Of a stretch of DNA of 64,000 nt, positions 1-48,314 are shown in pieces. How positions within the stretch are numbered: the stretch's first letter is position 1; every line of letters starts with the position of its first letter. Source of the DNA: a bacterium (GTDB lineage: Bacteria > Patescibacteriota > Patescibacteriia > UBA1558 > GWA2-36-10). The DNA lies in NCBI GenBank assembly GCA_018653315.1, contig JABIAL010000016.1, positions 3,433-67,432 on the forward strand, read 5' to 3'. The position numbers and the translations under genes were made by a program. Below the pieces are notes generated by a model that saw only the letters and a program-made list of their open reading frames with translations, was not told the DNA's origin and ran no database searches.

Positions 1-618
1 GCTGTTAATCAGCTGGATAATTATAAATTTGGTACCGTTGGTAAGGCTTTGGACTGCAATAAGGTAAAAATAGCAGAGAATAAAGAGATTATTGTTAGCG
101 GAGACAATGTAATGATGGGTTATTATGATAATCCAGAAGCAACAAAAGAGGTGATTAAAGATGGTTGGTTTTATACTGGTGATTTGGGCTTTATTGATGA
201 GGATGGTTTTTTGACTATTATTGGTAGAGCTAAAGATATCATTGTCTTATCGACAGGTAAGAATATATTTCCTGAGCCGATAGAAAATGCATTAAATGAA
301 AGCAAATATATTAATCAAAGTTTTGTTTATGGCGATAATGATAAGAATCTTTCAGTTTTAATAGTTCCTGATTTTGAAGAGTTAGCTATTTGGTCTCGTA
401 AAAATGATGTAGATTTTTCTTTACCAGATGCTTTAAAGAATAGCAAGGTTTTGATTCTGTATAAAAAGAAAATAGATAAGTGGTTGAAGGGTTTTTCTGA
501 GATTGAAAAAGTACAAAATTTTATTTTAGTTAGTGAGGAATTTAGTCAGGAGAATGGCTTATTGACTCCAACTTTAAAGTTGAGAAGAAAAATGATTAAA
601 GGTAAGTTTGATTTATGA
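1..618 (+). CDS. AMP-dependent synthetase/ligase (acyl-CoA synthetase-like), C-terminal part; 5' end lies outside the window
   Basis: Frame 1 is open from base 1. The translation contains the C-terminal AMP-binding motifs (GEI.V.G..VM.GY...PE.T......DGWFYTGDLG..DEDG.L.I.GR.KD.I...G.NI.P..IE) typical of acyl-CoA ligases. Confidence 0.75.
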   Translation, partial: AVNQLDNYKFGTVGKALDCNKVKIAENKEIIVSGDNVMMGYYDNPEATKEVIKDGWFYTGDLGFIDEDGFLTIIGRAKDIIVLSTGKNIFPEPIENALNESKYINQSFVYGDNDKNLSVLIVPDFEELAIWSRKNDVDFSLPDALKNSKVLILYKKKIDKWLKGFSEIEKVQNFILVSEEFSQENGLLTPTLKLRRKMIKGKFDL

Positions 619-639
619 TGATTTAATTAATTTTTAAAT

Positions 640-1332
640 ATGGGCATACAAAATATAAGTATTCTTATTATCAGTTCTCTTACCATATTGTTAGGATTTT
701 TGGTATTAAGAAAAAAATATAAAAATCCTGGTAATACATGGTATTTTTTAATGTGCCTTTTCGGTGGTGGTTGGGGAGTTATGAAAGCGATAGAGCTTTC
801 TTCAACGAGCGTCTATTGGCATGATTTTGTGTTTAAATTTGTTATGTTTTTTGGTATAATGGCACCATTGGCATATTTTATGTTAGCGTATAATTTTATT
901 TATAAAGTCAAAAATTTACCTAAAATATTATTATATTTCATATCTTCTGTTACTATAGTATTAGCTATTTTAAGTTTCGCGGGAGTATTAAAGTATGTTG
1001 ATGCTGCTATCATAGACGGTGTATTGTATAGAAATATTATTTTTTGGGATTATTTAATTTTTGTAGTTTACTTTTTTGTTTATGTATTCTTAGGACTTAT
1101 TATTTTGTTTAAAAAATATACCACAGCAGAAGGCACACATAAGAATCAATTTAGGTATTTAATAATCGGTACTGCTTTAACATTTTTGGTAACAGGCGTT
1201 GTAAGTGTAATTTTTTTATTGTTTAATAATTTTACATATGATTGGCTTGGCGCGATATTTTTGTCAATTCATTTATTGATTATTAGTCATTTTTTGTTTA
1301 TTAAACCAAAGATAGTCGCAAGTAGGGAGTGA
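640..1332 (+). CDS. polytopic membrane protein, standalone paralog of the N-terminal 7TM sensor domain of the downstream histidine kinase
   Basis: 230 aa with 6-7 hydrophobic helices. Blocks LGFLVLRKK, APLAYFMLAYNFIYK and LGLIILFKKYT...FRYLIIGTALTFL align with FGFFVLLKR, APLFLFFVFYFIYK and LGFILLIKKYT...IKYILIGTVISSL in the 2734..5547 protein. Confidence 0.6.
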   Translation: MGIQNISILIISSLTILLGFLVLRKKYKNPGNTWYFLMCLFGGGWGVMKAIELSSTSVYWHDFVFKFVMFFGIMAPLAYFMLAYNFIYKVKNLPKILLYFISSVTIVLAILSFAGVLKYVDAAIIDGVLYRNIIFWDYLIFVVYFFVYVFLGLIILFKKYTTAEGTHKNQFRYLIIGTALTFLVTGVVSVIFLLFNNFTYDWLGAIFLSIHLLIISHFLFIKPKIVASRE

Positions 1333-1338
1333 TATTTT

Positions 1339-2064
1339 ATGAAATATGAGTTAGAAGAAAAATTTTGGTTAAAGTATTTTAATGTTTATGATGCATTAGT
1401 TAATTTGATTCCTTACCAAAATGTTTTAGAAGACATTATATCTCTTTTGCCTAGTAAGAATTTAAAAATTTTAGAAACAGGATGTGGAACTGGTAATTTA
1501 ATTTTTTACATAGCTGATAATGTAAAGTATAAAAGATTAGTAGGAGTAGATTATTCTCTTGCGGCATTGACATTGGCTAATAAAAAAATAGAAAATAGAA
1601 AAAATATCATATTTAAATATGCTGACATAAGACAACATTTTGTATTTAAGGATGAAGAATTTGAAGTAATAGTTATGAATAATGTTTTGTATACATTGCC
1701 CGTTTCTAAGAGACAGGATTTAATACATGAAGTTTATAGGATGCTTAAACCAGGAGGTATTTTTATATTATCAAATATTAATATTCATTTTAAACCAATG
1801 TTGATATATAAAACACATATTTTAAAATCTATAAAAAAGAAAGGTTTCATTGTTACTATTACGCAGGTTTTTCAATTGATATATCCGACTGTAATGATTT
1901 TTTATTATAATTTTTTAATAAAAAAATCTAATAAGGGAGGTTTATATGATTTTATCAAACAAGGTGAACAGGCGGATTTATTGAGAAATAGTAAATTTAA
2001 AATAAATATTAATGATAAGCTAACTTATGCAGGAAGTGCATTTTTATCTAAAGGAACAAAATGA
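1339..2064 (+). CDS. class I SAM-dependent methyltransferase
   Basis: Motif I LETGCGTGNL, followed by a post-I acidic residue (VDYS) and motif II/III (LKPGGIFILS). The 241-aa length fits the family. Confidence 0.7.
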   Translation: MKYELEEKFWLKYFNVYDALVNLIPYQNVLEDIISLLPSKNLKILETGCGTGNLIFYIADNVKYKRLVGVDYSLAALTLANKKIENRKNIIFKYADIRQHFVFKDEEFEVIVMNNVLYTLPVSKRQDLIHEVYRMLKPGGIFILSNINIHFKPMLIYKTHILKSIKKKGFIVTITQVFQLIYPTVMIFYYNFLIKKSNKGGLYDFIKQGEQADLLRNSKFKININDKLTYAGSAFLSKGTK

Positions 2065-2747
2065 TTGTATTAAAAAAGTATAATGTTAATTGTCTTGGTA
2101 TAACAGACAATCTCTTAGTCTTTATTCCTAATACTTATATTGAAAAACAAAAAATGTATAAATTTCGATATAACGTTTATTTAAAAAAACATTATATTAC
2201 ACCAAACTTAGATATGTTGGATATAGATATTTATGACAAAGAAAATGGTGTAATATATATAAACGTATTTAGTGTTAAATTGAAAAAGATATTAGGTTCG
2301 GTAAGGATAATAACTAGACAAAATTTACCAATATTAAAAGATTGTTTTAATTTTAAAGAACCGCTTAGTATTAAATTATTTGCTAAACATAATATTGCTG
2401 AGTTGAGCCGCTTAATTATAATGCCATATACGAAAAATAAATTTTTACCTAGGCATTTAATATTAATCATTATGATAAAGGAGGTTTTACAGATACTTAA
2501 AGATAAAAAAATATTTTTTGTATATGCATTTATTAAAAGTAAATTATACTTTAAATTTAAAAAAATAAAATTGCCATTTTACAGCATCAAAAATTATAAT
2601 ATGAAATATAATGATGGTGTATTGAAAGAATATTTTAATCAAAAAAATGATCCGGTTTTACCTGTGTACTTTAATTATTTTTTTGTTAAATTATTTTTAG
2701 TACTTACATACGTAAAAATAAAAAAATATATAAATGTTATTGATTAA
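2061..2747 (+). CDS. GNAT-fold acyltransferase resembling autoinducer-synthase/FeeM-type N-acyl amino acid synthases (PF13444-like)
   Basis: The pattern F(R/K)YNVY...D.LD.D.YD......I.V......G.VRI.......LP.......F.......AELSRLII.PY matches the LuxI-like N-acyltransferase fold signature. The gene is translationally coupled to the MTase (ATGA overlap) and to the HK. Confidence 0.45.
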   Translation: MIVLKKYNVNCLGITDNLLVFIPNTYIEKQKMYKFRYNVYLKKHYITPNLDMLDIDIYDKENGVIYINVFSVKLKKILGSVRIITRQNLPILKDCFNFKEPLSIKLFAKHNIAELSRLIIMPYTKNKFLPRHLILIIMIKEVLQILKDKKIFFVYAFIKSKLYFKFKKIKLPFYSIKNYNMKYNDGVLKEYFNQKNDPVLPVYFNYFFVKLFLVLTYVKIKKYINVID

Positions 2748-5547
2748 TTTTTTATTACTAATTTCTTTTTTGATTAATCTTTTTTTTGGATTTTTTGTAT
2801 TATTAAAGAGAAAATCAGTAGATTATACCAGGTTAATTCTAGGCTTAATTTCAGTTGTAGTAGCCTTTTGGTGCCTTTCTTTATATCTTTATAGATTGAA
2901 TAGCGATGTTTTTCATATTGAATTGTGGGGTAAGATAGCACATATATTTGGTGCACTATTAGCACCATTGTTTTTATTTTTTGTATTTTATTTTATATAC
3001 AAGAATGTTATTAAGCGTATATTATTTAAAATAGTATTACCATCAATTTTATTTATTATAGTTGCTATATTATTATTGTTTACAGATTGGATCATAGGTG
3101 GTGGCTATGTGGTGAATAACGTTAATAATGTAGAATTATTTTTTGGATATTATATTTATATATTTTATTTGGTCATTCATTTTAATTTAGGTTTTATATT
3201 GTTAATAAAAAAATATACACATAGTAACGCATTAGAAAAAGAACAAATAAAATATATTTTAATAGGTACTGTTATTTCTTCATTGGGTGCTATAATTTTT
3301 GATTTAGTATATCCAATTTTTGTTGATTTTTCATTAAATTGGGTGGGTCCAGTTGTTACTATAACCATGGTAGTATCCATGGCATATGCTATCATTAGAT
3401 ATCGTTTAATGAATATTAAATTAATATTGGCACGTAGTATTCTTTATACCATTTTAGTTGGTACTGTGGCTAGTTTTTTTGCTTTTTTGCTTTTTTATAT
3501 TGGTCCGATATTATTTGGAGACACTAACAAAGGGCGTGTTATTAGCACTATTATTAGTTCTATTTTGATTGTTTTACTTTTGGATCCAATCAAGCGAGTT
3601 TGGGCAAAAATAACGGATAGTATTTTTTATAAAGATAAAATTAATTATCAACAAGTATTGCGTCATACTAGTGGTGTTATAGCCCGTGAGATTGATTTAG
3701 ATGATTTATTAGCTAATTTGACTAAGTTATTAGCTACAGAATTGAAGTTGAAACAAACCTTGGTGTTAATGCCAAGAGATAATAATTTCACTTTGATAGC
3801 GAGTTCAGCAGGAGTTAAATCACAGGTACAAATTACTAAACAGACCACTCAATATTTTGTTGATAACCATGGTTTTTTGATTACAGAAGAATTAATAAAA
3901 TTGCATGATGATTTTCATGATCAGAAAAAACAGCAGGAGTTAAATCATGTTATTCAGGAATTAGAACAAATTAAAGCAGAGATGGTGATTCCAATTGTTG
4001 AAGCAGATAAAACAGTAGCTTTGCTTGTTTTGGATCGTAAACTTTCTGGGGATATTTATGATAGTGCAGATATTGATTTTTTCAAGATTTTAGCTCCACA
4101 GATCGCTACGGCTATTGAGAAGTCTAAATTATATGAAGAAGTACAGGAATTAAACCGTGACTTACAAGCCAAGGTGGATGAGCGCACCAAGAGCTTAGAA
4201 CAGGCTAATGCAGATTTAGAATCGCGTAATCGTTATTTGACTACTATGCAGGTAATTCTAAATATGATTAGTCGTAGCTTAGATCTAAAAAAAGTTACCC
4301 AGATGATCGCCGATAGCATTGCTTCTGAGCTTGGCTATATTGGCGGTGTTTTAAGTTTTGTCAACGGCGATGGTAAATTACGAGTGAAGGCAGTAACACA
4401 GAATCATAAGGCCAAAACAGCTATAGATCTTTTGCCAGAAGATATATTTAAGTATAAAGCAGATTTAAAACATGGCTATAATCTAGGGGTGGATACTGTT
4501 TTGTCTGCTAAGATTAATTTTTCTCCCAAAATGACTGATTTTTTCTCACCGCCAGTTGATGAGGGAGTTATCGATAAAATTCAAGAACACCTTGGTGTAA
4601 AAACGATTATTGGCATTCCTATTTTTTCAGAAGATAAAATTATCGGTATTGTTCATTTTTTAGTCGCTGTAGAGAGAGAAAAAATTTCTTCTTTGGATAT
4701 TGAAATGATGACATCTTTGACCAATCAGGTAGGAATAGTTTCTCGTAATTTAGAGCTATACGAAAATTTACAAAAAGTAAATAAAGATTTACATGAAGCT
4801 AATACTCATCTAAAAGTTTTGGATAAAGCAAAGTCAGAATTTTTATCTATTGCCTCTCATCAATTACGTACGCCAATTTCCGCTATTAAAGGCTATCTAT
4901 CTATGATGATTGATGGTGATTTTGGTAAGATTCCAAATAATATCAGCAAATTAATTAGTGATTTATTTGAAAGTGCTTCTCGTTTAGCTAGAACTATTAA
5001 TGTCTTTTTAAATGTTTCTCGTATTGAAGCTGGACGTTTAAAATTAGATAAACATGCTGTGCAAATCGATACTATGGTTACTAGCGTTATCACTGAATTA
5101 CAAAATGCAGCTATTAATAAAGGCATTAAATTGAGTTATATAAAATCAAAGCAAGAAGTTCCCTTGATTTATGCAGATAATGATAAATTGCGAGAAGTAG
5201 TTTTGAATTTAATAGACAATGCTATTAAATATACTCCAAAAGGGTCAATAGAAGTTTTTTTAGAATTTAATGAGCAAGTTTTGACTTTTATTTCTCGTGA
5301 TACAGGCATTGGTATTCACACAGAAGAAGCACGGACTTTGTTTAGAAAATTTGTGCGTGGTGACGGAGTAGCTCAAATTCATACTGGCGGTTCTGGTTTA
5401 GGTTTATTTATTGCTCAGAAGATAGTCAAAGAGCATGATGGTCGTATTTGGGTAGAAAGCGAAGGCAAAGGTAAGGGTAGTGTTTTTAAATTTGAAGTAC
5501 CAATAGCAACTGAAAAGCAAATAGCTGACGCATCAGCCGAAGAATAA
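2734..5547 (+). CDS. sensor histidine kinase: N-terminal 7TM sensor domain, GAF domains, HisKA and HATPase_c
   Basis: Multi-TM N-terminus; H-box SHQLRTPISAIKGY; N-box LIDNAIKYT; G1 DTGIGI; G2 GGSGLGL. No response regulator gene lies adjacent. Confidence 0.85.
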   Translation: MLLINFLLLISFLINLFFGFFVLLKRKSVDYTRLILGLISVVVAFWCLSLYLYRLNSDVFHIELWGKIAHIFGALLAPLFLFFVFYFIYKNVIKRILFKIVLPSILFIIVAILLLFTDWIIGGGYVVNNVNNVELFFGYYIYIFYLVIHFNLGFILLIKKYTHSNALEKEQIKYILIGTVISSLGAIIFDLVYPIFVDFSLNWVGPVVTITMVVSMAYAIIRYRLMNIKLILARSILYTILVGTVASFFAFLLFYIGPILFGDTNKGRVISTIISSILIVLLLDPIKRVWAKITDSIFYKDKINYQQVLRHTSGVIAREIDLDDLLANLTKLLATELKLKQTLVLMPRDNNFTLIASSAGVKSQVQITKQTTQYFVDNHGFLITEELIKLHDDFHDQKKQQELNHVIQELEQIKAEMVIPIVEADKTVALLVLDRKLSGDIYDSADIDFFKILAPQIATAIEKSKLYEEVQELNRDLQAKVDERTKSLEQANADLESRNRYLTTMQVILNMISRSLDLKKVTQMIADSIASELGYIGGVLSFVNGDGKLRVKAVTQNHKAKTAIDLLPEDIFKYKADLKHGYNLGVDTVLSAKINFSPKMTDFFSPPVDEGVIDKIQEHLGVKTIIGIPIFSEDKIIGIVHFLVAVEREKISSLDIEMMTSLTNQVGIVSRNLELYENLQKVNKDLHEANTHLKVLDKAKSEFLSIASHQLRTPISAIKGYLSMMIDGDFGKIPNNISKLISDLFESASRLARTINVFLNVSRIEAGRLKLDKHAVQIDTMVTSVITELQNAAINKGIKLSYIKSKQEVPLIYADNDKLREVVLNLIDNAIKYTPKGSIEVFLEFNEQVLTFISRDTGIGIHTEEARTLFRKFVRGDGVAQIHTGGSGLGLFIAQKIVKEHDGRIWVESEGKGKGSVFKFEVPIATEKQIADASAEE

Positions 5548-5682: not shown

Positions 5683-6057
5683 ATGAAAACTAGCAATTCA
5701 ATTTGGCTGTTTCTTTTGATTTTTGTCTTTGTTATTGGTCTTTTTTTATTTTTAAATAAATCTACTGTCCAAGATAAAACACAGCTAACGCTAGCTGATG
5801 TATCTGAGTGTCAATCAGAGAAGATTGAAATATCTGTTTGGCAATTACCTGCTAATACGATTTTACTTAATACTTTTATTAGTTTTAAAAGTTTTCCTTT
5901 GGCTGAAGAATTAAAAGATAAGATAACTAATTGGGGGATCGCCTTAGATGAAAATTCTTTAATTTTTGATTATCTATGGGCCAGTATTCCAGTTGAACAT
6001 TTATGTGATTTAGTAGAATTAGATGAAGTTACTTCTGTTTTTACTTTAAATAAATAA
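5683..6057 (+). CDS. hypothetical membrane-anchored/secreted small protein
   Basis: 124-aa ORF with an N-terminal hydrophobic segment (IWLFLLIFVFVIGLFLFL). It sits directly upstream of pgk. Confidence 0.5.
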   Translation: MKTSNSIWLFLLIFVFVIGLFLFLNKSTVQDKTQLTLADVSECQSEKIEISVWQLPANTILLNTFISFKSFPLAEELKDKITNWGIALDENSLIFDYLWASIPVEHLCDLVELDEVTSVFTLNK

Positions 6058-8509: not shown

Positions 8510-10087
8510 ATGCCTAAAAATATAAAAAATAAAACAACAAATACACCATTAGTTTTGGTTATTTTGGATGGTTGGGGTTTATGGAAAGAAACAGAAGGCA
8601 ATGCCATTGCTCAAGCCAAGACGCCGGTAATGGATGGCTTGTATAAGCAATATCCTCATACAAAAATAAATGCTTCAGAAAAAGAAGTTGGTTTATCTAA
8701 GAACCAGCCAGGAAATTCAGAAGCAGGACATATGAACATTGGTGCGGGAAGAGTAGTTGAACAAGATTCTATTAGTATTTCTAAGAGCATCAATAATGGT
8801 ACTTTTTTTAAGAATCCAGCTTTTTTGCAAGCAGCTACTCAGGTTACTAAAAATAAATCAGATATTCATCTAATTGGCTTACTATCTGATAAGTCTAGTC
8901 CACATGCTGATAATGATCATATTTTGTCCTTGTTAAGTTTTTTTGTAAATAAAACAGATCGTAATATTTATTTGCATTTGTTTACTGATGGTCGTGATAG
9001 TCCGCAATTTGCAGCTGCTCGTATTTTGGAAAAATATAAAATTATTTTTGATCGCAAACGAATAAAGATAGCTACTATTATGGGTCGTTTTTACGCCATG
9101 GATCGTAAAAAGACTTGGGATCGAACTGAGACTGCCTATAAGGCTATGGTTTTAGGTCAAGGCATAGAAGTGGAAAGTGCATCAGAAGCTGTTAATCAAG
9201 CCTATAATAGAGGAGAGAGCGATGAGTTTATTCAGCCAACTGTTATTGTTAAAAATAAAAAACCAATAGCCACTATAAAAGATAAAGACGCAGTAATATT
9301 CTTTAATTTGCGTTCAGATCGAGCACGACAATTAGCCAAGGTATTTGCTCAAACTAATTTTGAAAAGAAAAATAAAGGAGCTTTTAAACCCAAGAAAAAA
9401 TTTAAGAATTTATTATTTGTAGCTTTGACTGATTTTGGTCCTGATTTGGATAATATCTTAACTGCTTTCCCGGGTATTGATATACCAGAGACATTGCCAT
9501 TTACCTTGCGTGATTTACGTCAATTATATATTGCTGAAACAGAAAAATATGCCCATGTTACTTATTTTTTTAACGGTGGTTATGACCATGTGATAGCCGG
9601 TGAGGACAGAGTAGAAATTCCATCAAAGGATGTTGATTCTTATTCTACAGTGCCCGCTATGAGCACCAAGGAGGTTAATATACATGTTAGGAAAGTCATT
9701 AAGGAAGATAAATATGATTTTATTTGTGTAAATTTTGCTAGCCCAGATATGGTTGCTCATACAGGTGATTTGGTAGCTGGTATAAAAGCAGTGGAAGTAG
9801 TTGATACAGAATTAGGCAAGTTGGTAAATACTGTTTTGAAGAAAAATGGCACTATTATTGTTACGGCTGATCATGGCAATATTGAAGAGATGATAAATTT
9901 AGAAACTAAAGAAATCGATACTAAGCATTCTATTAATCCGGTGCCTTTGATTGTAATAAATCATATAAAATATAAATTAAGAAAAAATGGTAAATTAGCA
10001 GATATTGCACCTACCATTTTAGATATTTTAGACTTGCCAAAACCAAAATTGATGCAAGCAAAATCTTTAATAAAATCGAGAGTATGA
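8510..10087 (+). CDS. gpmI: 2,3-bisphosphoglycerate-independent phosphoglycerate mutase (copy 1)
   Basis: LVILDGWG, catalytic-serine motif PGNSEAGHMNIGAGR, FTDGRDSP and TADHGN. Confidence 0.9.
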   Translation: MPKNIKNKTTNTPLVLVILDGWGLWKETEGNAIAQAKTPVMDGLYKQYPHTKINASEKEVGLSKNQPGNSEAGHMNIGAGRVVEQDSISISKSINNGTFFKNPAFLQAATQVTKNKSDIHLIGLLSDKSSPHADNDHILSLLSFFVNKTDRNIYLHLFTDGRDSPQFAAARILEKYKIIFDRKRIKIATIMGRFYAMDRKKTWDRTETAYKAMVLGQGIEVESASEAVNQAYNRGESDEFIQPTVIVKNKKPIATIKDKDAVIFFNLRSDRARQLAKVFAQTNFEKKNKGAFKPKKKFKNLLFVALTDFGPDLDNILTAFPGIDIPETLPFTLRDLRQLYIAETEKYAHVTYFFNGGYDHVIAGEDRVEIPSKDVDSYSTVPAMSTKEVNIHVRKVIKEDKYDFICVNFASPDMVAHTGDLVAGIKAVEVVDTELGKLVNTVLKKNGTIIVTADHGNIEEMINLETKEIDTKHSINPVPLIVINHIKYKLRKNGKLADIAPTILDILDLPKPKLMQAKSLIKSRV

Positions 10088-11661
10088 ACAGACCACGTCC
10101 AGTTGTTTTAATAGTGTTAGATGGTTTTGGTTTGGCTCCACCGTCACGAGCCAATGCTATTTCTTTGGCTAAAACACCCAATTTTGATAAGTATATGAGT
10201 AATTATCCGGTCATGCCAGTATCTGCTGCTGGAGGAGCGGTTGGTTTAAATTGGGGTGAAATTGGTAATTCAGAAGTGGGTCATTTATCTTTGGGTTCTG
10301 GTACTATTTGTTACCAGAATTTGCCACGGATCACAAAGTCTATTTCCGAGGGTGATTTTTTTTCTAATGAAGCTTTTATTTCTGCTTGCAAACATGTTAA
10401 AGAAAAAGGGTCTAGTTTGCATTTGATGGGTCTGATGTCTTCAGGTGGTGTGCATAGTTTTAATGAGCATCTGTATGCTTTAGTAGAATTAGCTAAGAAA
10501 GAGAAAGTAGAGCGAGTTTATATTCATGCATTTTTGGATGGTCGTGATGTTCCTTATAGTAGCGGTCTAAATTTTATTGCTAAATTGCAGGAAAAATTAA
10601 AAATAATTGGCTTAGGTGCAATAGCTTCAATTAGTGGTCGTTTTTATGCTATGGATCGTGATAATAATTGGGATCGAATAGAGAAAGCATATCGGGCTAT
10701 TGTTGACGGCAAGAATGAAATAAAATATGAAGATCCAGTAGAGGCTATCAAAGCGTCTTATAATCAAGGTATCTATGATGAAGAATTTGTACCAACTGCT
10801 ATCGTTGACGACAGACAGCAGGCTAAAGGTAAGATTCAAGACGGTGATGGTATTATTTTTTTCAATTTTCGTTCAGATCGAGCACGACAATTAACCAAAG
10901 CCTTGGTTTTACCAGGGTTTGAAAAATTTAAATGTCAATATTTTCAAAACTTATTTATGGTTACTATGACAGAATATGAAAAAGATTTACCAGTAACCAT
11001 TGCTTTTCCGCCAATAGTAATAAAAACTCCATTAGCTAAGGTTATTGCTGATGCTGGTTTAAAGCAATTACATACAGCGGAGACAGAGAAATTCGCTCAT
11101 GTTACTTATTTCTTTAATGGTGGTAGTGACATAATTTTTGATAATGAAGACAGAGAATTAATACCATCTCCTCATGTGCCTTCTTATGATCAGAAACCAG
11201 CCATGTCGGCTAGAGAAATTACCAATAAATTAGTGCAGAAAATAAAAGAGGGGAATTATGATTTTATAGTAGTTAATTATGCCAATGCGGACATGGTCGG
11301 ACATACTGGTAATTTGAATGCTACAATTGAAGCAGTAGAGATTCTAGATAAATTAATAGGAGAATTAGTAGATACTATTTTATCTTATAATGGCGTGGCA
11401 TTAATCACAGCTGATCATGGCAATGCAGAAGTTATGTATGATTTACAAACAGGTGAAATCAGCAAAGAACATTCTAATAATCCGGTGCCGTTATTTGTTA
11501 TTGGACAGCAATTTGCTGGTAAGAGTGTCTTGCCTGGTTTGTCGGGTAGAGATCTAAGTCAAATAACGCCAGTAGGTGTATTGGCAGATATAGCGCCAAC
11601 TGTTTTGAAAATCATGGGATTGAAAAAACCAGCCAAAATGACTGGTAGTTCGTTAGTTTAA
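10084..11661 (+). CDS. gpmI: 2,3-bisphosphoglycerate-independent phosphoglycerate mutase (copy 2, tandem paralog)
   Basis: VLDGFG, IGNSEVGHLSLGSGT, FLDGRDVP and TADHGN. It overlaps copy 1 by 4 nt (ATGA) and is 525 aa, the same length as copy 1. Confidence 0.9.
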   Translation: MNRPRPVVLIVLDGFGLAPPSRANAISLAKTPNFDKYMSNYPVMPVSAAGGAVGLNWGEIGNSEVGHLSLGSGTICYQNLPRITKSISEGDFFSNEAFISACKHVKEKGSSLHLMGLMSSGGVHSFNEHLYALVELAKKEKVERVYIHAFLDGRDVPYSSGLNFIAKLQEKLKIIGLGAIASISGRFYAMDRDNNWDRIEKAYRAIVDGKNEIKYEDPVEAIKASYNQGIYDEEFVPTAIVDDRQQAKGKIQDGDGIIFFNFRSDRARQLTKALVLPGFEKFKCQYFQNLFMVTMTEYEKDLPVTIAFPPIVIKTPLAKVIADAGLKQLHTAETEKFAHVTYFFNGGSDIIFDNEDRELIPSPHVPSYDQKPAMSAREITNKLVQKIKEGNYDFIVVNYANADMVGHTGNLNATIEAVEILDKLIGELVDTILSYNGVALITADHGNAEVMYDLQTGEISKEHSNNPVPLFVIGQQFAGKSVLPGLSGRDLSQITPVGVLADIAPTVLKIMGLKKPAKMTGSSLV

Positions 11662-16228: not shown

Positions 16229-18340
16229 TTATTCATTAATAGCTAATAGATATAGATGATTACCATTGAGTAAATAAATAGCTTTTTCTTCTTGGTCTAT
16301 TGCTAGATCAACTAGATTATCAAATTTAAGTGAAGTGTATTGATCTTTGATGTTGCCTTCTTTGTCCAAAATAGCTACTCGTTGGTTATCTGGATCAATA
16401 ATATATAGATAATCAGAATCTGTGAATGTTTTGAGAATTGCTTTGGAGCCTAATTTTGGATGTGGTTGATGATAATTAAAAATATCCCGAGAGCCTTTGC
16501 GAAGTTTTAGTATTTGTCCGCTGTTAAACATGACGTACATATCGCCATCTAAAGTAAAACTATTAGCATCACTTAGATCAATATCATCTTGCAGCCAGTT
16601 AACGCCATTACTGAATGATTGACCACGTTCCGGGTATTTGAATATTTGGCTAGCTATAGTGTCTAACACGTATAGATTGTTGCTATAAATAGACATGTCT
16701 TGCACGCTAGTATTGCCGACACTTTGAGTAAAGCTAAATGAGTCTATTTGCTGATCATCTAAGTTAAAAATAACATATTCTTGATCGCCACTTATAATAA
16801 GTTGATTTTTATTTGGCCAATCAGCTAGTGTTTTTCCATTAGGATAACTAGTTAAAACACGTGGTGATTGTTCCTCGAGAATATATAAATTTTCTTGATC
16901 TAAAATATAAAATTGTCCGTCTTTTTGGACGATTTGTTTTGATTGATTAAGTTCACTAAGATCAAATAATTCCAAAGGAGAATCGACATAATTAATATGA
17001 CGAACTTTATTAAGCATGCGGACAGCTTGTTCTTTGGCGGTGTTTAGTTCTTCTTCTTGACTTGGTGAGCTAGACTCTAAGCTGTCTAGCATATCTTGAA
17101 TGTTTAGTAATAATTCTTCTGCTCTTTTTTCATCATCATAAATCAAACTAGCTTCTACTTCATTAAGACTATTATTGATTGCCTGAATTGATTTGTCATA
17201 GGCATCTTCTTGTTTGTTGATGGCTTGTTTTTGGGTTAAAAATACTAAACTTTGTAAAAATATCAATAACACAGCAATTACACTAATTAGTAACACTTTT
17301 TTTTGCCAGCTTAAATTACTAAACCAATTGACACGTTTGTTAATTGATTTTTGACTTGTTTGTAAGATGTTGCTTTCTCTGTCTTGTCGATATTGGCTAG
17401 AAAAGATAAATAGCCAAGCATTTTTGATATAGTGTCCAGTAGTAGTAAATATTTTAGCTACAAAATTAAAATATATTTTAGCAAATTGCCATATTTGAAC
17501 GAATATTTGAAAGATTTTGATATTTTTTAGACCATCTTTATCAAAAACAAGTTTAGTACGGGTTGATTTGCGATGTTTTGTTTTATGATCTTTTGTTTGA
17601 ATTGTACTCTGTGCTTCAATAATACCATCATTATCGTTATCATCGTCAGATTGTACGCTGATTTGTGTTTGTTCATTTGGTATATCTAAATCATGTCCAC
17701 TAGGGCGTTTGATTACTAATGAATTGAAAGTAACAAAATCAGGAACGGTGTCTAGTAGTTGTTTAAATTGGACAACTGCCGCTTGAGGGGTGTATTTTTT
17801 GATGATTCTTTTAATTTTTTCTTCGGAAATGTAATCAAATAAAGCGTTAGTAGATATAATTAAAGCATCTCCAGTGTCTAATTGACCAGAAACTATATCT
17901 GTAAAAATTTTGCTAGGATCAAAATCTGTATTTGCCTCTAGAATTTGAGTGGTCTGGTTACTGTGGATTAATAAACCGCCGACATTTCCAATGCTGGCTA
18001 AATAAACACTGTCTTGATGTATGATGCCAACAACAATATCTAGTGTTTGTAGCCAATTTTTAATTTTATGGGTATTTAATTCTGGTAAAATTTGGTTAAG
18101 TTCTTGTAAAATTTCTTCTAATAATAATTCTGGATCATCTTGAGGACTAGAAATAAAATGATGCGTTAAAGCCTCAATGATTTGGTCGATCATTGGTTGT
18201 TGATTGATTTTATTTTTAGGAGTTTCCAAGATTAAAAATAGTTGTCCACGCTCACTAGCATCACTAAAATAAACCTCGGATAATTCACGAGCATTTATGT
18301 GGTCATGTACAAAAAGTTTGTTATATTCTAAGTGAGACAT
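16229..18340 (-). CDS. membrane signalling protein: N-terminal degenerate PP2C-like domain, one TM helix, coiled-coil, C-terminal beta-propeller-like repeats
   Basis: 703 aa. The N-terminal domain has HQDSVYLASIGNVGG and GDALIISTNALFDYISEEKIKRI, which resemble PPM motifs (GDSRaYL..., GD.lllcSDGL...). TM segment VLLISVIAVLLIFLQSLVFL. The C-terminal half carries repeated YILD/YVLD/YIID/YLL blade-like units. Confidence 0.55.
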   Translation of the reverse strand: MSHLEYNKLFVHDHINARELSEVYFSDASERGQLFLILETPKNKINQQPMIDQIIEALTHHFISSPQDDPELLLEEILQELNQILPELNTHKIKNWLQTLDIVVGIIHQDSVYLASIGNVGGLLIHSNQTTQILEANTDFDPSKIFTDIVSGQLDTGDALIISTNALFDYISEEKIKRIIKKYTPQAAVVQFKQLLDTVPDFVTFNSLVIKRPSGHDLDIPNEQTQISVQSDDDNDNDGIIEAQSTIQTKDHKTKHRKSTRTKLVFDKDGLKNIKIFQIFVQIWQFAKIYFNFVAKIFTTTGHYIKNAWLFIFSSQYRQDRESNILQTSQKSINKRVNWFSNLSWQKKVLLISVIAVLLIFLQSLVFLTQKQAINKQEDAYDKSIQAINNSLNEVEASLIYDDEKRAEELLLNIQDMLDSLESSSPSQEEELNTAKEQAVRMLNKVRHINYVDSPLELFDLSELNQSKQIVQKDGQFYILDQENLYILEEQSPRVLTSYPNGKTLADWPNKNQLIISGDQEYVIFNLDDQQIDSFSFTQSVGNTSVQDMSIYSNNLYVLDTIASQIFKYPERGQSFSNGVNWLQDDIDLSDANSFTLDGDMYVMFNSGQILKLRKGSRDIFNYHQPHPKLGSKAILKTFTDSDYLYIIDPDNQRVAILDKEGNIKDQYTSLKFDNLVDLAIDQEEKAIYLLNGNHLYLLAINE

Positions 18341-45509: not shown

Positions 45510-48314
45510 ATGTCCAATGAACAATTTGCTGGCCAAAACGTCGGCTTTAAACAAAAGTTCACTAAGCGTCGAGTTGTAGTCACAATGTTATTTATGCTTG
45601 GTGCTTATGCAGCTATCCAAAGTGTAGTTAGTTTTGGTAAAACTGAAGACACAGTAGTTGAGCCATCTGATAAAGTGGTAAAACAAGTTGAGGTTAAGAA
45701 AGACATGCTTCATGTTGTTCCTCCAGCTCCAACAAAATTAAAAACTGACAATGAAGGTGATATTGATGTGGAATCTTACGGTTTATTTGGTTACGTGCCA
45801 AATGATAATGTTCCACTGGTCCCAGTTCCAGTAGTTGAAGTTGAAGAAGAGGAATTAGATTTAACAGACTTGACTGTTGATGACTGCATAGAAGCTGATA
45901 TTGTCATGGCTAGTATAAATCCTGAAGACATCAATGATGCTATGGTAGCGCAATGTTTGATTTTATGGGAAGATTTGCAAGATTTATTAGATGAAGTTGA
46001 TGAAGAAGTAGCTACAACAACTCCTACTACTACACCGAGAAGAGGCGGTGGTGGAGGCGGGGGTGGAACTGATAATCCTCCTGAAGAAGATCCGCTATCT
46101 ACTAATTCCGATTTAGGTATTTTCGATGTAGACAAAATAAACATTTTGCCATTTGATGGTTTGCGAGTAGCAGATTTTGATGAAGACGGCGCAACTTTGT
46201 TAGTAGACGATTATTTTTGTAAAGAAACTGAATTAACTGCTTGGCCTTGTTTTCATCCGGGTAAGCCTCTGATGGGTGTTTTTCTGGCTGCTGCTGATGA
46301 AAAGAGTAGTTATGCTAGAGTTGAGATCGAACGTAATAATCCTTTATTGTTAGAATATAGCCCAGCTAGAGTGTGGGAAAATGATGAAATCTCTAAGTTA
46401 GCAAAGGAGGAAATTTTGCCAGGCGACATCATTCGAGTGACTGCCATTGCCGAAGATGGTGTTAGTCAGAGCTTATTTAAATTAAACGTCGATGCCTTAG
46501 CCAGTGATGCTAATTTGAATATTTTTGATGTTGATTTTGTTGATGTGCTACCATTTGATGGTTTGCAAGTTAAAAAATTTGATGATCCAGGTGCCATCTT
46601 AAACATGTATAATTATCTCTGCGATCCATCTGTAGTTGGTCCAGAGCCTTGCGTGGGTGGTATTGGCGAGAGAATTACCTTGAGCGGCCTAATGCTACAA
46701 GCTAGAGATAGAAATATTAGCCATAGTAAGGTTGAAATTGAACGTAGAAGTCCATTTTCTTTTTGGGACACACCAATAAAAATCTGGGAAGGCAAAGAGA
46801 TCGACCAATTAAGAGATATGCAGATTTGGCCAGACGATATCATTAGAGTAACAATTGTTGCTGAAAATGGTCGGGCAGAAAATTTATTTAAATTGAGCGT
46901 TGTCAATCAAACAGATAATGCTGATTTAAGCCAATTTAATATTGGTACCTCTCCAGTTCTAGAGTGGCCAAATATTGAAGTGAAAGATATTAATAGTTTA
47001 GGTGCTATAGCTAATATTTGTCCAGAAAATATAAATGGTGAAGCAAGTCCTTATTTTACTTGTATTACTACTTTGGATGGAGTGTTTATCACACCAGAAG
47101 ATGAAGATGTTAGAAATATTACAGTTTCTATTTATCATGAAAATCTAATCAGTAAAGCTATATTTGTACCAGAAAAGTTTGACTTCTTTGAAGGTGAAGA
47201 AGAAATAAAACAATTAGAAAAATATCAACTTGTGCAAGACGATATGATTTTTGTGCAAGTTACAGCTGAAGATGGAGCCACAATCAAAAATTATAAAATT
47301 CAAGTTATTGAAGGTGATTATACGGAGAATGTAAGTTTGGCAGCATTTACCGTAGGTGGTATTAATGCTTTAGCCTTACCAAATGTAGAAATAGCTGGTT
47401 GGTATGACCAAGGAGCAGTAATTGAACTTTGTAATCCAACTCGTGCTACAGCTGATTGCATAGAAAGTTTAGAAGGCATTATCGTAAAAACAGAAGAAGA
47501 TACAATGTATCGCGGTGTTTATATTGAAAGAGATGGAGATGCAAATTCATTAATTTGGGTCAATGATCAAATAGATGGACTTGTAAACTTTGAAGTTTTA
47601 CCAAACGATATTATTCGTGTAGTGGTTGTAGCTAGCAATGGTAAGGCATTGGGCTTTTATAAGGTATCTGTTATATATCAAACTAGAAATGATATATTAT
47701 TATCTGAATTTACAATAGATACACATAATGCTTTGTTATTACCAGATGTAAAGATAGATAATCTTTCTGATGCTGGCGCTACATTGTTTGTACCAACAGA
47801 AGAAGTTATCCCTTGTTCATCTAATAGAGCCGAAGGTTGCACCACCATTGATCTCACTGGTATTTATGCTGCGCAGGCACTCAAAGATGTGGATATTACA
47901 GTTTATACTTTTCATGATTATTGGTCTACTTGGGTAGGTGAAGAGGGCATAGGTCAATTAGTGGATCATGAATTAGCCATTGGTGATATGGTTGCTGTGC
48001 TACTAAAGGAAGAGAATGGTTTACAGCAAACTTTATATAAAGTTACCATTGCAGAAAAGTCAGTAGAGCCTCTAGTGATCAAGAAATTCTATCCTAGCAA
48101 ATTTATTGGCGGTGGCGGATCAGTAGCACCTGTAAAGAAAAAGCCTTTAGAAGAAACAGATTTTTCTAATATTCAAGATCAGGAATTGAAAAAAGAAGAG
48201 GTTGTTAATGAGATAGAAGTGGAAAAAACTCCAGAACCACAACCTGATACTGATGATGTTAAAATAATCAAAGAGCCTATTGTTGTGAAAGAAACAGAGG
48301 AAACAGAGGAATAA
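45510..48314 (+). CDS. large acidic membrane-anchored repeat protein, paralog B
   Basis: 934 aa with the same architecture as paralog A: TM anchor, LTVDDCIEADIVMASINPEDINDA block, TTTPTTTPRRGGGGGGGGT linker, at least six modules, and an IGGGGS...KKKP C-terminal tail. Confidence 0.7.
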   Translation: MSNEQFAGQNVGFKQKFTKRRVVVTMLFMLGAYAAIQSVVSFGKTEDTVVEPSDKVVKQVEVKKDMLHVVPPAPTKLKTDNEGDIDVESYGLFGYVPNDNVPLVPVPVVEVEEEELDLTDLTVDDCIEADIVMASINPEDINDAMVAQCLILWEDLQDLLDEVDEEVATTTPTTTPRRGGGGGGGGTDNPPEEDPLSTNSDLGIFDVDKINILPFDGLRVADFDEDGATLLVDDYFCKETELTAWPCFHPGKPLMGVFLAAADEKSSYARVEIERNNPLLLEYSPARVWENDEISKLAKEEILPGDIIRVTAIAEDGVSQSLFKLNVDALASDANLNIFDVDFVDVLPFDGLQVKKFDDPGAILNMYNYLCDPSVVGPEPCVGGIGERITLSGLMLQARDRNISHSKVEIERRSPFSFWDTPIKIWEGKEIDQLRDMQIWPDDIIRVTIVAENGRAENLFKLSVVNQTDNADLSQFNIGTSPVLEWPNIEVKDINSLGAIANICPENINGEASPYFTCITTLDGVFITPEDEDVRNITVSIYHENLISKAIFVPEKFDFFEGEEEIKQLEKYQLVQDDMIFVQVTAEDGATIKNYKIQVIEGDYTENVSLAAFTVGGINALALPNVEIAGWYDQGAVIELCNPTRATADCIESLEGIIVKTEEDTMYRGVYIERDGDANSLIWVNDQIDGLVNFEVLPNDIIRVVVVASNGKALGFYKVSVIYQTRNDILLSEFTIDTHNALLLPDVKIDNLSDAGATLFVPTEEVIPCSSNRAEGCTTIDLTGIYAAQALKDVDITVYTFHDYWSTWVGEEGIGQLVDHELAIGDMVAVLLKEENGLQQTLYKVTIAEKSVEPLVIKKFYPSKFIGGGGSVAPVKKKPLEETDFSNIQDQELKKEEVVNEIEVEKTPEPQPDTDDVKIIKEPIVVKETEETEE

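What the first reader, a model, noticed from the sequence alone, without database searches (positions are those of the whole stretch)
640..1332. Standalone paralog of the histidine kinase's 7TM sensor domain
The 230-aa membrane protein aligns block by block with the first 230 residues of the downstream kinase: LGFLVLRKK/FGFFVLLKR, APLAYFMLAYNFIYK/APLFLFFVFYFIYK, LIILFKKYT..FRYLIIGTALTFL/FILLIKKYT..IKYILIGTVISSL. It lacks any GAF or kinase part. A detached sensor module could heteromerise with the kinase's membrane domain to modulate signalling, or it may be a decoy left by a partial duplication.
Basis: seen in the sequence. Interest (0 to 1): 0.5.

Follow-up and report, generated by a model that had tools for sequence, protein, structure and literature searches.

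The report
Free-standing 7TM sensor paralog beside kinase
A small membrane protein that copies only the seven-helix sensor part of a nearby bacterial signalling kinase is real, ancient and conserved. It belongs to a tandem family of such GPCR-shaped proteins that, in candidate-phyla-radiation (CPR) bacteria, always sit with that kinase and with enzymes that join fatty acids to amino acids.

Summary
**Observation: confirmed.** ORF 640..1332 (230 aa) is a complete, stand-alone HisKA_7TM (PF16927) domain. It is homologous over about 220 residues to the first 235 residues of the kinase at 2734..5547:
- 29% identity
- z = 12–16 against shuffles
- profile–profile probability 99.1%

**Not a recent partial duplicate or a decaying decoy.**
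- Orthologs are 46–71% identical in more than 24 Patescibacteria loci.
- It is as conserved as the kinase itself.
- It carries its own invariant polar residues.

**Context.** A contig identical to the window start shows the full cluster: cysS, 7TM-GAF, 7TM, asparaginase-like, unknown, α/β-hydrolase, FadD-like ligase, this 7TM, methyltransferase, FeeM/LuxI-like synthase, 7TM-GAF-GAF-kinase. In relatives the synthase is replaced by a CqsA/serine-palmitoyltransferase-type α-oxoamine synthase. Stand-alone 7TM genes occur in tandem arrays of 2–3.

**Best reading (inferred, about 0.45).** It is a ligand-binding co-receptor subunit that signals through the kinase's membrane domain and senses lipid–amino-acid products. 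Heteromerisation could not be tested.

It is a new variant of a known sensor domain.

The parts
1..618 (+). 3' end of a FadD-like AMP-forming acyl ligase. The gene starts 1085 bases before the window (L018 8276-9979).
   Evidence: NCBIfam best hits are fatty acid-CoA ligases such as FadD11, E 3.5e-27. Pfam finds AMP-binding_C_3. The full 567-aa gene lies on the 100%-identical contig L018, with AMP-binding at E 3.6e-78.
640..1332 (+). The finding: a free-standing HisKA_7TM protein of 230 aa, called 's3' here. It has seven TM helices, N-terminus out and C-terminus in, and a beta-hairpin between TM4 and TM5. It ends 9 residues after TM7.
   Evidence: Pfam PF16927 only. AF2 model with pLDDT 85.8 and pTM 0.83. 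K+R count of 11 inside against 2 outside. Orthologs.
1339..2064 (+). SAM-dependent methyltransferase (241 aa). It starts 6 nt after the 7TM gene.
   Evidence: Methyltransf_25 E 2.5e-20, Methyltransf_11 E 8.7e-19. The same gene occupies the same position in L004, L007, L013 and L015.
2061..2747 (+). FeeM/LuxI-superfamily N-acyl synthase-like GNAT (228 aa). It overlaps both neighbouring genes.
   Evidence: PF21926 FeeM scores 27.3 bits against a cut-off of 27, and TIGR03694 gives E 8.3e-9. Orthologs P0176 and P0177 pass the Pfam cut-offs for FeeM and for PF00765 Autoind_synth.
2734..5547 (+). Sensor histidine kinase (937 aa): HisKA_7TM (residues 7-228), two further TM helices, 2 GAF domains, HisKA and HATPase_c.
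   Evidence: Pfam. Orthologs sit at the end of the cluster in L001, L004, L007, L008, L010, L011, L015, L020, L023, L025 and L027.
2734..3438 (+). The kinase's own 7TM module (residues 1-235), the paralog partner of 640..1332. It ends in the YAIIRYRLMNI motif, which the stand-alone protein lacks.
   Evidence: Alignments. The invariant columns Y218 A219 I220 R224 L225 M226 N227 I228 are in A2.

Best explanation
ORF 640..1332 encodes a functional, free-standing receptor-type membrane protein. It is a HisKA_7TM domain with a GPCR-like seven-helix fold, N-terminus outside, no cytoplasmic output domain and its own conserved polar pocket residues.

It is one of several old paralogs arrayed in a Patescibacteria (CPR, candidate phyla radiation) gene cluster:
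- two 7TM-only proteins
- one 7TM-GAF protein
- one 7TM-GAF-GAF-histidine kinase

Most likely mechanism (inferred):
- Each 7TM module binds an amphiphilic small molecule in or at the membrane.
- Because the stand-alone modules have no output, they act by lateral helix-helix contact with the membrane domain of the kinase, the only module with catalytic output. They add or tune ligand inputs, as a co-receptor or modulator subunit.
- The likely ligands are fatty-acyl-amino-acid conjugates made or processed by the co-encoded enzymes. These are a FadD-like ligase, an alpha/beta-hydrolase, a methyltransferase plus a FeeM/LuxI-like synthase here, and a CqsA/SPT-type alpha-oxoamine synthase in relatives.

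Shown: homology, conservation, synteny, predicted fold and topology, and absence of an output domain.

Inferred: ligand binding, ligand class, and physical contact with the kinase.
For: 1. **Whole-domain homology to the kinase's sensor.**
2. **Purifying selection.** There are 23 full-length orthologs at 46-72% identity with 25 invariant columns. Conservation is 55-62% against 46-53% for the adjacent enzymes and 54-56% for the kinase's 7TM.
3. **Group-specific invariant residues.**
   - TM2: C39, G42, G43, G46, K49, Q52.
   - ECL2 hairpin: R131.
   - TM5: Y148.
   - TM6: T181, T185, S189.
   - ECL3: N196, D201.
   - TM7: H211.
   - By position in the helices these lie mostly in the outer half, which suggests a specialised pocket of its own.
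4. **Synteny.** The kinase follows the stand-alone 7TM gene in the window and in L001, L004, L007, L008, L010, L011, L015, L020, L023, L025 and L027. Genes are tightly packed or overlapping.
5. **Full cluster in the same organism.** L018 is identical over 1714 bases and adds a 7TM-GAF protein and another 7TM-only protein upstream. This gives a graded series 7TM / 7TM-GAF / 7TM-GAF-GAF-kinase.
6. **No output motif.** The kinase and the 7TM-GAF proteins keep the YAIxRYRLMNI motif after TM7 and the stand-alone proteins do not.
7. **Two modules can work in one protein.** Kinases of 957-1095 aa carry two tandem HisKA_7TM modules.
9. **Ligand class.** The slot between this gene and the kinase holds either a FeeM/LuxI-like synthase plus methyltransferase, or a BioF/Kbl/SPT/CqsA-family PLP acyltransferase (TIGR01825 E 1e-117), or a GNAT plus phosphatidylserine decarboxylase. 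All of these join or modify an acyl group and an amino acid or lipid head group.
Against:
- The protein is closer to other stand-alone 7TMs than to the kinase's module.
- Both modules of the tandem kinases are kinase-type, so there is no specific fusion of this subfamily to a kinase.
- Two or three stand-alone copies per locus, and translational coupling to the acyl ligase in some loci (L010), fit a role in the metabolic pathway equally well.
- About one third of the nearest 150 cluster representatives are stand-alone proteins whose contexts I could not inspect.
- No response regulator was found in the 64-kb window or in L001, L004 and L007 by tblastn with CheY and PhoB, so the kinase's output is unknown.
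- The window's copy departs from near-invariant residues at three positions: E52 for Q, Y138 for F, and H217 for Y. The last is conserved in all groups.
- The GPCR-like fold rests on a prediction, and Foldseek E-values are only about 1e-3.
Confidence: 0.45

Rival explanations
1. Pathway component rather than co-receptor. The stand-alone 7TM proteins use the same lipid-binding fold to export, flip, import or chemically modify the acyl-amino-acid or lipid product of the cluster, independently of the kinase. The kinase's homologous domain merely senses the same class of molecule.
For: - The gene directly follows the FadD-like ligase and in L010 overlaps it by 4 nt.
- Several copies per locus, with up to 3 adjacent.
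- Subfamily-specific invariant polar or ionisable residues inside helices (C39, K49, S189, D201, H211) could form a catalytic or translocation site.
- It is closer to other stand-alone proteins than to the kinase module.
- The cluster has a lipid theme: alpha/beta-hydrolase, acyl ligase and PS decarboxylase.
Against: - The domain family is known only as a sensor module of kinases (PMC5847659, PMC6944256).
- In L011, L020 and L021 the 7TM genes sit with the kinase or with each other and without the ligase nearby. Linkage to the kinase is therefore tighter than linkage to the ligase.
- Only one conserved histidine is present, so there is no metal-site motif.
Confidence: 0.3
2. Dominant-negative regulator. 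The truncated receptor pairs with the kinase's 7TM domain only to block its dimerisation or signalling, as a constitutive brake without any ligand binding of its own.
For: - It has no output domain.
- Synteny with the kinase is conserved.
- The shared family core residues W45, G204, Q170 and Y173 are retained.
Against: - A simple brake would not need 20 or more subfamily-specific invariant residues.
- It would also not need several diverged subfamilies kept side by side.
- Interaction is untested.
Confidence: 0.12
3. Non-functional remnant or decoy from a recent partial duplication of the kinase gene.
For: Same domain, same strand, and only 1.4 kb from the kinase.
Against: - Only 24-29% identical to the kinase but 46-71% identical to orthologs elsewhere.
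- The ORF is intact, at 225-234 aa, in 23 cluster representatives.
- It is as conserved as the kinase.
- The only disrupted copy seen is in L014/L038.
Confidence: 0.03
4. The resemblance is only hydrophobic composition shared by any two polytopic membrane proteins.
For: Low-GC genome, with Phe/Ile/Leu-rich helices in both proteins.
Against: - z = 12.3 against shuffles that keep each helix and loop.
- True score 210, against 67 for the reversed sequence and 44 for BacA.
- Both proteins independently pass the Pfam PF16927 cut-off.
- hhalign probability 99.1%.
Confidence: 0.01

Closest known systems
HisKA_7TM sensor domain (Pfam PF16927) of bacterial and archaeal histidine kinases
   Same: Significant match over the whole domain (45.1 bits). 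It has seven TM helices, and the family core positions are conserved: W in TM2, the KKY...Q..Y loop before TM6, and WxG before TM7.
   Different: Here the domain is the entire protein. It lacks the conserved post-TM7 motif YAIxRYRLMNI and has no HisKA or HATPase part. It has its own invariant residues. The domain's ligand is unknown in any protein; the literature only lists it as a sensor domain.
Sensory rhodopsin plus Htr transducer of haloarchaea (from established knowledge)
   Same: A free-standing 7TM receptor with no output domain would pass its signal laterally within the membrane to a partner that controls a histidine kinase. This is the mechanism proposed here.
CqsA/CqsS (Vibrio) and LqsA/LqsS (Legionella) alpha-hydroxyketone quorum sensing
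   Same: An acyl-plus-amino-acid condensing synthase is encoded next to a polytopic membrane histidine kinase that binds the lipid-like product inside its TM domain (PMC13174287; PMC3376566). Relatives of this cluster carry a BioF/Kbl/SPT/CqsA-family enzyme in that position.
   Different: The window has a FeeM/LuxI-like synthase plus a methyltransferase instead. The kinase sensor is a 7TM HisKA_7TM domain, not the CqsS six-helix domain. Extra stand-alone receptor paralogs have no counterpart in Cqs or Lqs. No product is known.
Eukaryotic GPCRs, especially class C heterodimers such as GABA-B1/B2
   Different: Sequence identity is 6-15%. There is no DRY or NPxxY motif (read) and no G proteins. 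The similarity rests on a predicted model. GPCR-like folds of prokaryotic kinase 7TM domains have already been noted (PMC13581589).
LIC10906 family membrane protein (NCBIfam NF047679, Leptospira)
   Same: Another stand-alone polytopic protein family with weak similarity (E 1.9e-5, residues 18-199).
   Different: The score of 24.3 bits is far below the family cut-off of 200, so this protein is not a member. The function of that family is also unknown.

Membership tests
HisKA_7TM (PF16927) | Match to the family HMM above the gathering score | tested here: met
   45.1 bits against 28.6, residues 8-214 on profile positions 2-210 of 224.
HisKA_7TM (PF16927) | Seven transmembrane helices with the N-terminus outside | tested here: met
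   The AF2 model has helices at 3-25, 30-54, 58-85, 95-114, 135-162, 166-194 and 201-221. K+R count is 11 on the inferred inside and 2 outside. This rests on prediction only.
HisKA_7TM (PF16927) | Located N-terminal to a histidine kinase core in the same polypeptide (the family's name and description) | tested here: not met
   No HisKA, HATPase_c or GAF match. The protein ends 9 residues after TM7. It is a domain member with a different architecture.
HisKA_7TM (PF16927) | Post-TM7 motif Y-A-I-x-[RK]-[YH]-[RK]-L-[ML]-N-I, seen in every kinase-linked module examined | tested here: not met
   It is invariant in the kinase N-termini (A2) and after each module of the tandem kinases. It is absent from the stand-alone proteins.
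G-protein-coupled receptors | GPCR-type packing and order of seven helices | tested here: met
G-protein-coupled receptors | Class signature motifs (DRY in TM3, NPxxY in TM7) | tested here: not met
   Neither motif occurs in the 230-aa sequence (read directly).
G-protein-coupled receptors | Coupling to heterotrimeric G proteins or arrestins | not testable with these tools
   No such test is available here. From general knowledge, bacteria lack these partners.
Microbial (sensory) rhodopsins | Retinal-binding lysine in TM7 | tested here: not met
CqsS/LqsS-type autoinducer receptor systems | CqsA-type PLP-dependent synthase encoded beside the membrane kinase | tested here: inconclusive
   Relatives L001 and L008 carry a BioF/Kbl/SPT/CqsA-family enzyme. 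TIGR01825 gives E 1e-117 or better, and the CqsA model NF005526 gives E 3e-52 but scores below its cut-off. The window itself has a FeeM/LuxI-like enzyme instead.
CqsS/LqsS-type autoinducer receptor systems | CqsS-type sensor domain | tested here: not met
   The first 300 residues of the kinase match no NCBIfam model at E <= 1. Pfam assigns HisKA_7TM.
PEP-CTERM system kinase PrsK with TIGR03694 acyltransferase | Kinase matches PrsK (TIGR02916), and the acyltransferase matches TIGR03694 above its cut-off | tested here: not met
   The kinase N-terminus has no NCBIfam hit. The GNAT scores 35.2 bits against a cut-off of 111.95 for TIGR03694.
7TMR-DISM_7TM (PF07695) | Match to the family HMM | tested here: not met
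   There is no hit at E <= 0.1 for this protein. One distant relative, P0123, gives a sub-threshold 23 bits.

The most novel reading that the evidence does not exclude
Patescibacteria (CPR) carry a modular lipid-signal sensing system with three components:
- A tandemly diversifying repertoire of free-standing, GPCR-fold 7TM receptors.
- A single 7TM-GAF-histidine kinase into which those receptors feed by intramembrane contact.
- A swappable signal-synthase cassette, either LuxI/FeeM-like or CqsA/SPT-like, that makes fatty-acyl-amino-acid signals from scavenged lipids.

This would be a previously undescribed quorum- or host-sensing circuit. It would also be a prokaryotic case of multi-subunit signalling by GPCR-like receptors.
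Probability: 0.2. Interest if true: 0.8.

Novelty: new variant of a known kind. Interest (0 to 1): 0.55.

Why it matters
- HisKA_7TM is a widespread sensor domain with no known ligand and no solved structure. I found no PDB relative by sequence.
- The domain occurs here as independent, conserved, tandemly diversified proteins. This shows the 7TM module is a functional unit on its own.
- These proteins are small (about 230 aa) and suitable for expression, for ligand screening and for structure work on a prokaryotic GPCR-like fold.
- The linked enzymes point to a testable ligand class: N-acyl amino acids or their esters, or alpha-amino-ketone lipids.
- CPR bacteria depend on host lipids and have few recognised signalling systems. 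A lipid-sensing receptor array in these reduced genomes would bear on how they perceive hosts or kin.

Tried and rejected
- **AlphaFold database search.** The afdb50 library was not installed.
- **Structure of the FeeM-like enzyme.** Only 3 sequences were available and the model had pLDDT 54.9, so I did not use it for a fold search.
- **PDB relatives by sequence.** None were found for the 7TM family or the FeeM-like family.
- **PrsK / PEP-CTERM link.** This was suggested by the TIGR03694 hit, but the kinase N-terminus matches no NCBIfam model.
- **Response regulator.** tblastn with CheY and PhoB found none in the window or in L001, L004 and L007. No second kinase or 7TM gene exists elsewhere in the window.
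- **Promoter and terminator scan.** Counts were no higher than in shuffles, so it was uninformative.
- **Rosetta-stone argument.** Tandem 7TM-7TM kinases exist, but both modules are kinase-type, so the argument holds only at family level.
- **dN/dS.** I did not attempt it. Orthologs are at most 71% identical, so synonymous sites are saturated; I used relative conservation against neighbouring genes instead.
- **Literature.** Only two papers mention the domain, and both merely list it. Two other searches returned nothing.
Full report
**1.

- The + strand ORF 640..1332 encodes 230 aa. The open frame begins at 631 and the first start codon is the ATG at 640.
- Pfam finds a single family in it, PF16927 HisKA_7TM. 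The match covers residues 8-214 at 45.1 bits against a gathering score of 28.6.
- The 937-aa protein at 2734..5547 has the same family at residues 7-228, followed by two GAF domains, HisKA and HATPase_c.
- BLASTP aligns residues 134-206 with kinase residues 135-207 at 32% identity, E 2e-11.
- A global alignment to kinase residues 1-240 gives 64 identities in 223 columns (29%), z = 15.6 against 500 shuffles.
- Plain shuffling destroys the helix layout, so I added controls that keep it:
  - true local score 210
  - reversed kinase sequence 67
  - unrelated polytopic BacA of this window 44
  - 1000 shuffles confined within each helix or loop: mean 69.4, sd 11.4, max 119 (z = 12.3)
- Ortholog profiles of the two proteins align over 212 columns with probability 99.1% and E 1.2e-18.
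- The resemblance is homology over the whole domain, not composition.

**2. It is an old, conserved gene, not a remnant**

- A search of 5.8 billion proteins returned 25 clusters. Those that are full length are 213-234 aa, carry only PF16927, and are 46-71% identical to this protein. The single named one is from Candidatus Komeilibacteria.
- Twenty-three full-length sequences share 25 invariant and 35 nearly invariant columns.
- Against the same two genomes (L004, L007) the protein is 55-62% identical. The methyltransferase is 46-53%, the FeeM-like enzyme 46%, the kinase's 7TM 54-56% and the rest of the kinase 58%.
- Within one genome the 7TM modules are only 17-27% identical to each other, while each is 48-62% identical to its ortholog elsewhere. 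The duplications therefore predate these lineages.
- The protein's profile is closer to the other stand-alone group (E 2.1e-28, 231 columns) than to the kinase's module (E 1.2e-18).
- A profile search of 1.84 billion cluster representatives gave 1704 hits at E <= 0.001, 274 at <= 1e-10 and 11 at <= 1e-30. Of the best 149, 50 are 200-250 aa and 70 are longer than 400 aa. The eight of those that I scanned against Pfam comprised six complete kinases, one 7TM-GAF protein and one with 7TM only.
- In 185,579 species-representative genomes the subfamily occurs in four loci. Three are Parcubacteria, Komeilibacteria or Patescibacteria MAGs. The fourth is a 2.4-kb contig binned as 'Neisseria' that carries the same CPR gene order and is probably misbinned.

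**3. The surroundings**

In the window the genes are tightly packed on one strand:
- the 3' end of a FadD-like acyl ligase (..618)
- the 7TM protein (640..1332)
- a SAM methyltransferase (1339..2064)
- a FeeM-like GNAT (2061..2747, overlapping both neighbours)
- the kinase (2734..5547)

A metagenome contig, L018, is identical to window positions 1-1714 with 0 mismatches. It supplies the part cut off by the window edge. Its order is cysS, a 454-aa HisKA_7TM+GAF protein, a 233-aa HisKA_7TM-only protein, an asparaginase-like protein, a 186-aa protein with no family, an alpha/beta-hydrolase (Hydrolase_4) and the full 567-aa ligase, followed by the gene under study.

The organism therefore has four HisKA_7TM modules in one co-directional cluster between cysS and pgk. 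They form a graded series: 7TM, 7TM, 7TM-GAF, and 7TM-GAF-GAF-kinase.

The same layout recurs in L001, L004, L007, L008, L010, L025 and others.
- The kinase lies downstream of this gene in 12-13 of 15 loci with enough sequence.
- The exceptions are L034, which is short, and L014/L038, where the gene is frameshifted.
- Stand-alone 7TM genes usually occur as two or three neighbours.
- Across 31 non-redundant loci, 72 complete ORFs carry the module. At 40% identity the stand-alone ones fall into this subfamily (25 members), a second subfamily (16) and at least five small ones.

**4. The variable slot between this gene and the kinase**

The slot holds different enzymes in different loci:
- Methyltransferase plus FeeM-like GNAT in the window, L004, L007, L013 and L015. 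Orthologs P0176 and P0177 pass Pfam cut-offs for both FeeM and the LuxI-type Autoind_synth family.
- A PLP-dependent alpha-oxoamine synthase of the BioF/Kbl/serine-palmitoyltransferase/CqsA family in L001, L008, L011, L020, L023 and L025. I confirmed this with NCBIfam for L001 and L008 (TIGR01825 E 1e-117 and 4e-124). The other loci were assigned by BLAST to the L001 protein.
- A GNAT plus a phosphatidylserine-decarboxylase-like protein in L010.

All of these join or modify an acyl chain and an amino acid or lipid head group. The conserved upstream ligase and hydrolase fit acyl activation and release.

A syntenic relative, L016, has the same pgk-eno-iPGM-iPGM-bacA genes downstream. It carries a stand-alone 7TM of the second subfamily and an apparently split kinase, with quite different enzymes: carbamoyltransferase, DHQ-synthase-like and NUDIX. 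The constant elements are the 7TM proteins and the kinase. The chemistry cassette varies.

**5. Structure and topology**

- AlphaFold2 on the 23-sequence alignment gives pLDDT 85.8 and pTM 0.83. The model has seven helices, a beta-hairpin at 120-133 between helices 4 and 5, and a short helix after helix 7.
- Lys+Arg counts are 11 on one side and 2 on the other. This places the N-terminus outside and the C-terminus inside. The kinase needs the same orientation, since it has two more helices before its cytoplasmic GAF domains.
- Foldseek agrees on ranking but weakly, with best E 1.2e-3 and TMq 0.5-0.65.
- A 2026 survey of AlphaFold models already lists prokaryotic histidine kinases and diguanylate cyclases among GPCR-like 7TM folds (PMC13581589). 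The fold itself is therefore not a new finding.
- The literature on HisKA_7TM only lists it as a sensor domain with no known ligand (PMC5847659, PMC6944256).
- No PDB entry is related by sequence.

**6. What distinguishes the stand-alone protein**

- Residues shared by all groups are W45, F86, L156, G204 and Y217. Q170 and Y173 are shared with the kinase group.
- Residues invariant only in this subfamily:
  - TM2: C39, G42, G43, G46, K49, Q52
  - the hairpin: L129, R131
  - TM5: F141, F146, Y148
  - TM6: T181, F182, T185, G186, S189
  - ECL3 and the start of TM7: N196, D201
  - TM7: H211
- By position along the helices most of these lie in the outer half, where GPCRs bind ligands. I could not check this on coordinates.
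- The kinase group and the second stand-alone group have an Asp where this group has S189.
- Every kinase-linked module, including both modules of the tandem kinases and the 7TM-GAF proteins, continues after helix 7 with Y-A-I-x-R/K-Y/H-R/K-L-M/L-N-I. The stand-alone proteins stop within about 10 residues. They therefore have no cis output.

**7. Mechanism**

Shown:
- a conserved, intact, output-less receptor-type module
- it is encoded with a kinase that bears the homologous module
- acyl-amino-acid enzymes are co-encoded

Inferred:
- it binds a membrane-soluble ligand
- it acts through lateral contact with the kinase's membrane domain as a co-receptor or modulator

Support for cooperation between modules is at family level only. 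Kinases of 957-1095 aa carry two HisKA_7TM modules in tandem, but both modules are of the kinase type.

The main rival is a role in handling the cluster's product (export, flipping or modification). This is favoured by adjacency to the ligase and by the multiple copies. It is disfavoured by loci where the 7TM genes stay with the kinase and not the ligase (L011, L020).

I put the co-receptor reading at about 0.45, the pathway reading at 0.3, a pure dominant-negative brake at 0.12, and a remnant or a compositional artefact at 0.04 together.

The kinase has no response regulator in the 64-kb window, so its output is unknown.

**8. Comparison with known systems**

- **HisKA_7TM.** The protein is a member at the domain level, but it fails the family's usual architecture (no kinase) and lacks the post-TM7 motif.
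- **Sensory rhodopsin and Htr.** It may work like this pair, a free 7TM receptor signalling laterally. It is not a rhodopsin, because TM7 has no lysine and no rhodopsin appears among the top fold hits.
- **CqsA/CqsS and LqsA/LqsS.** The cluster resembles these in pairing an acyl-amino-acid condensing enzyme with a polytopic kinase that binds the lipid in its membrane domain (PMC13174287). The sensor domain is different, and extra free receptors have no counterpart there.
- **PrsK/TIGR03694.** Not supported.

**9. Verdict**

The 'decoy or partial duplication' reading is wrong. The 'modulatory partner' reading is plausible but untested.

The larger picture is a tandem repertoire of free-standing GPCR-fold sensor modules. 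They are tied to one kinase and to a swappable lipid-amino-acid enzyme cassette in CPR bacteria. To my knowledge this is undescribed. I class it as a new variant of a known kind, of moderate interest.

Noticed in passing
L018 3711-5778 (upstream of window position 1; L018 position = window position + 9361): The same organism encodes two more HisKA_7TM proteins just before the window. One is a 454-aa 7TM+GAF protein without a kinase part, and the other is a 233-aa 7TM-only protein.
   Followed up: yes
window 1339-2747, compared with L001 8699-11005, L008 7680-8930, L010 4924-6398: The slot between the 7TM gene and the kinase varies among relatives. It holds methyltransferase + FeeM/LuxI-like GNAT, or an alpha-oxoamine synthase (BioF/Kbl/SPT/CqsA family) with or without an Amidohydro_2 protein, or a GNAT + phosphatidylserine-decarboxylase-like protein.
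   Followed up: partly
P0125, P0129, P0143, P0168, P0085 (public proteins, not in the window): Histidine kinases of 957-1095 aa carry two tandem HisKA_7TM modules joined by one extra helix, followed by the kinase core (with GAF and PAS domains in P0125, the only one of the four ~1080-aa proteins scanned; none detected in P0085). Each module ends in the YAIxRxRLMNI-type motif.
   Followed up: partly
window 2734-5547 and the whole window: The kinase is an orphan. tblastn with CheY and PhoB finds no receiver domain in the 64-kb window or in L001, L004 and L007. The window has no second kinase core.
   Followed up: partly
window 1-4000: GC content is 24.5-27% across the sensor cluster, against 30-37% in the rest of the window. 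This could reflect membrane-protein codon bias or a different origin.
   Followed up: no
window 8510-10087 and 10084-11661: Two adjacent 525-aa paralogs of cofactor-independent phosphoglycerate mutase (iPGM_N + Metalloenzyme) follow pgk and eno. The same doublet occurs in the syntenic relative L016.
   Followed up: partly
L016 10001-12821; L014 1361-1865 (= L038 1349-1844): In L016 the kinase appears split into three ORFs (481 aa 7TM+GAF, 224 aa GAF+HisKA, 75 aa HATPase). In L014/L038 the ortholog of the gene under study is split into two overlapping frames. These could be pseudogenes or assembly errors.
   Followed up: no
window 640-1332, residues 52, 138, 217: The window's copy departs from near-invariant family residues at three positions: E52 for Q, Y138 for F and H217 for Y. 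The last is conserved in all three 7TM groups.
   Followed up: no
window 5683-6057: A 124-aa protein with a hydrophobic N-terminus and no Pfam family lies right after the kinase. A 124-aa ORF holds the same position in L015, also before pgk.
   Followed up: no
L018 6764-7324 (orthologs at L004 4847-5416, L008 1142-1711, L010 1016-1573): A conserved protein of about 186-199 aa sits between the asparaginase-like gene and the alpha/beta-hydrolase in every full cluster. It has no Pfam match and no meaningful NCBIfam match.
   Followed up: no
window 16229-18340 (-) and 45510-48314 (+): Two large ORFs (703 and 934 aa) have no Pfam match at E <= 1e-5.
   Followed up: no
L013 (CAYZUJ010000169.1, 2439 bp): A contig binned as 'uncultured Neisseria sp.' carries the CPR-type order 7TM, 7TM, methyltransferase, FeeM-like. 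It is probably a misbinned Patescibacteria fragment.
   Followed up: no
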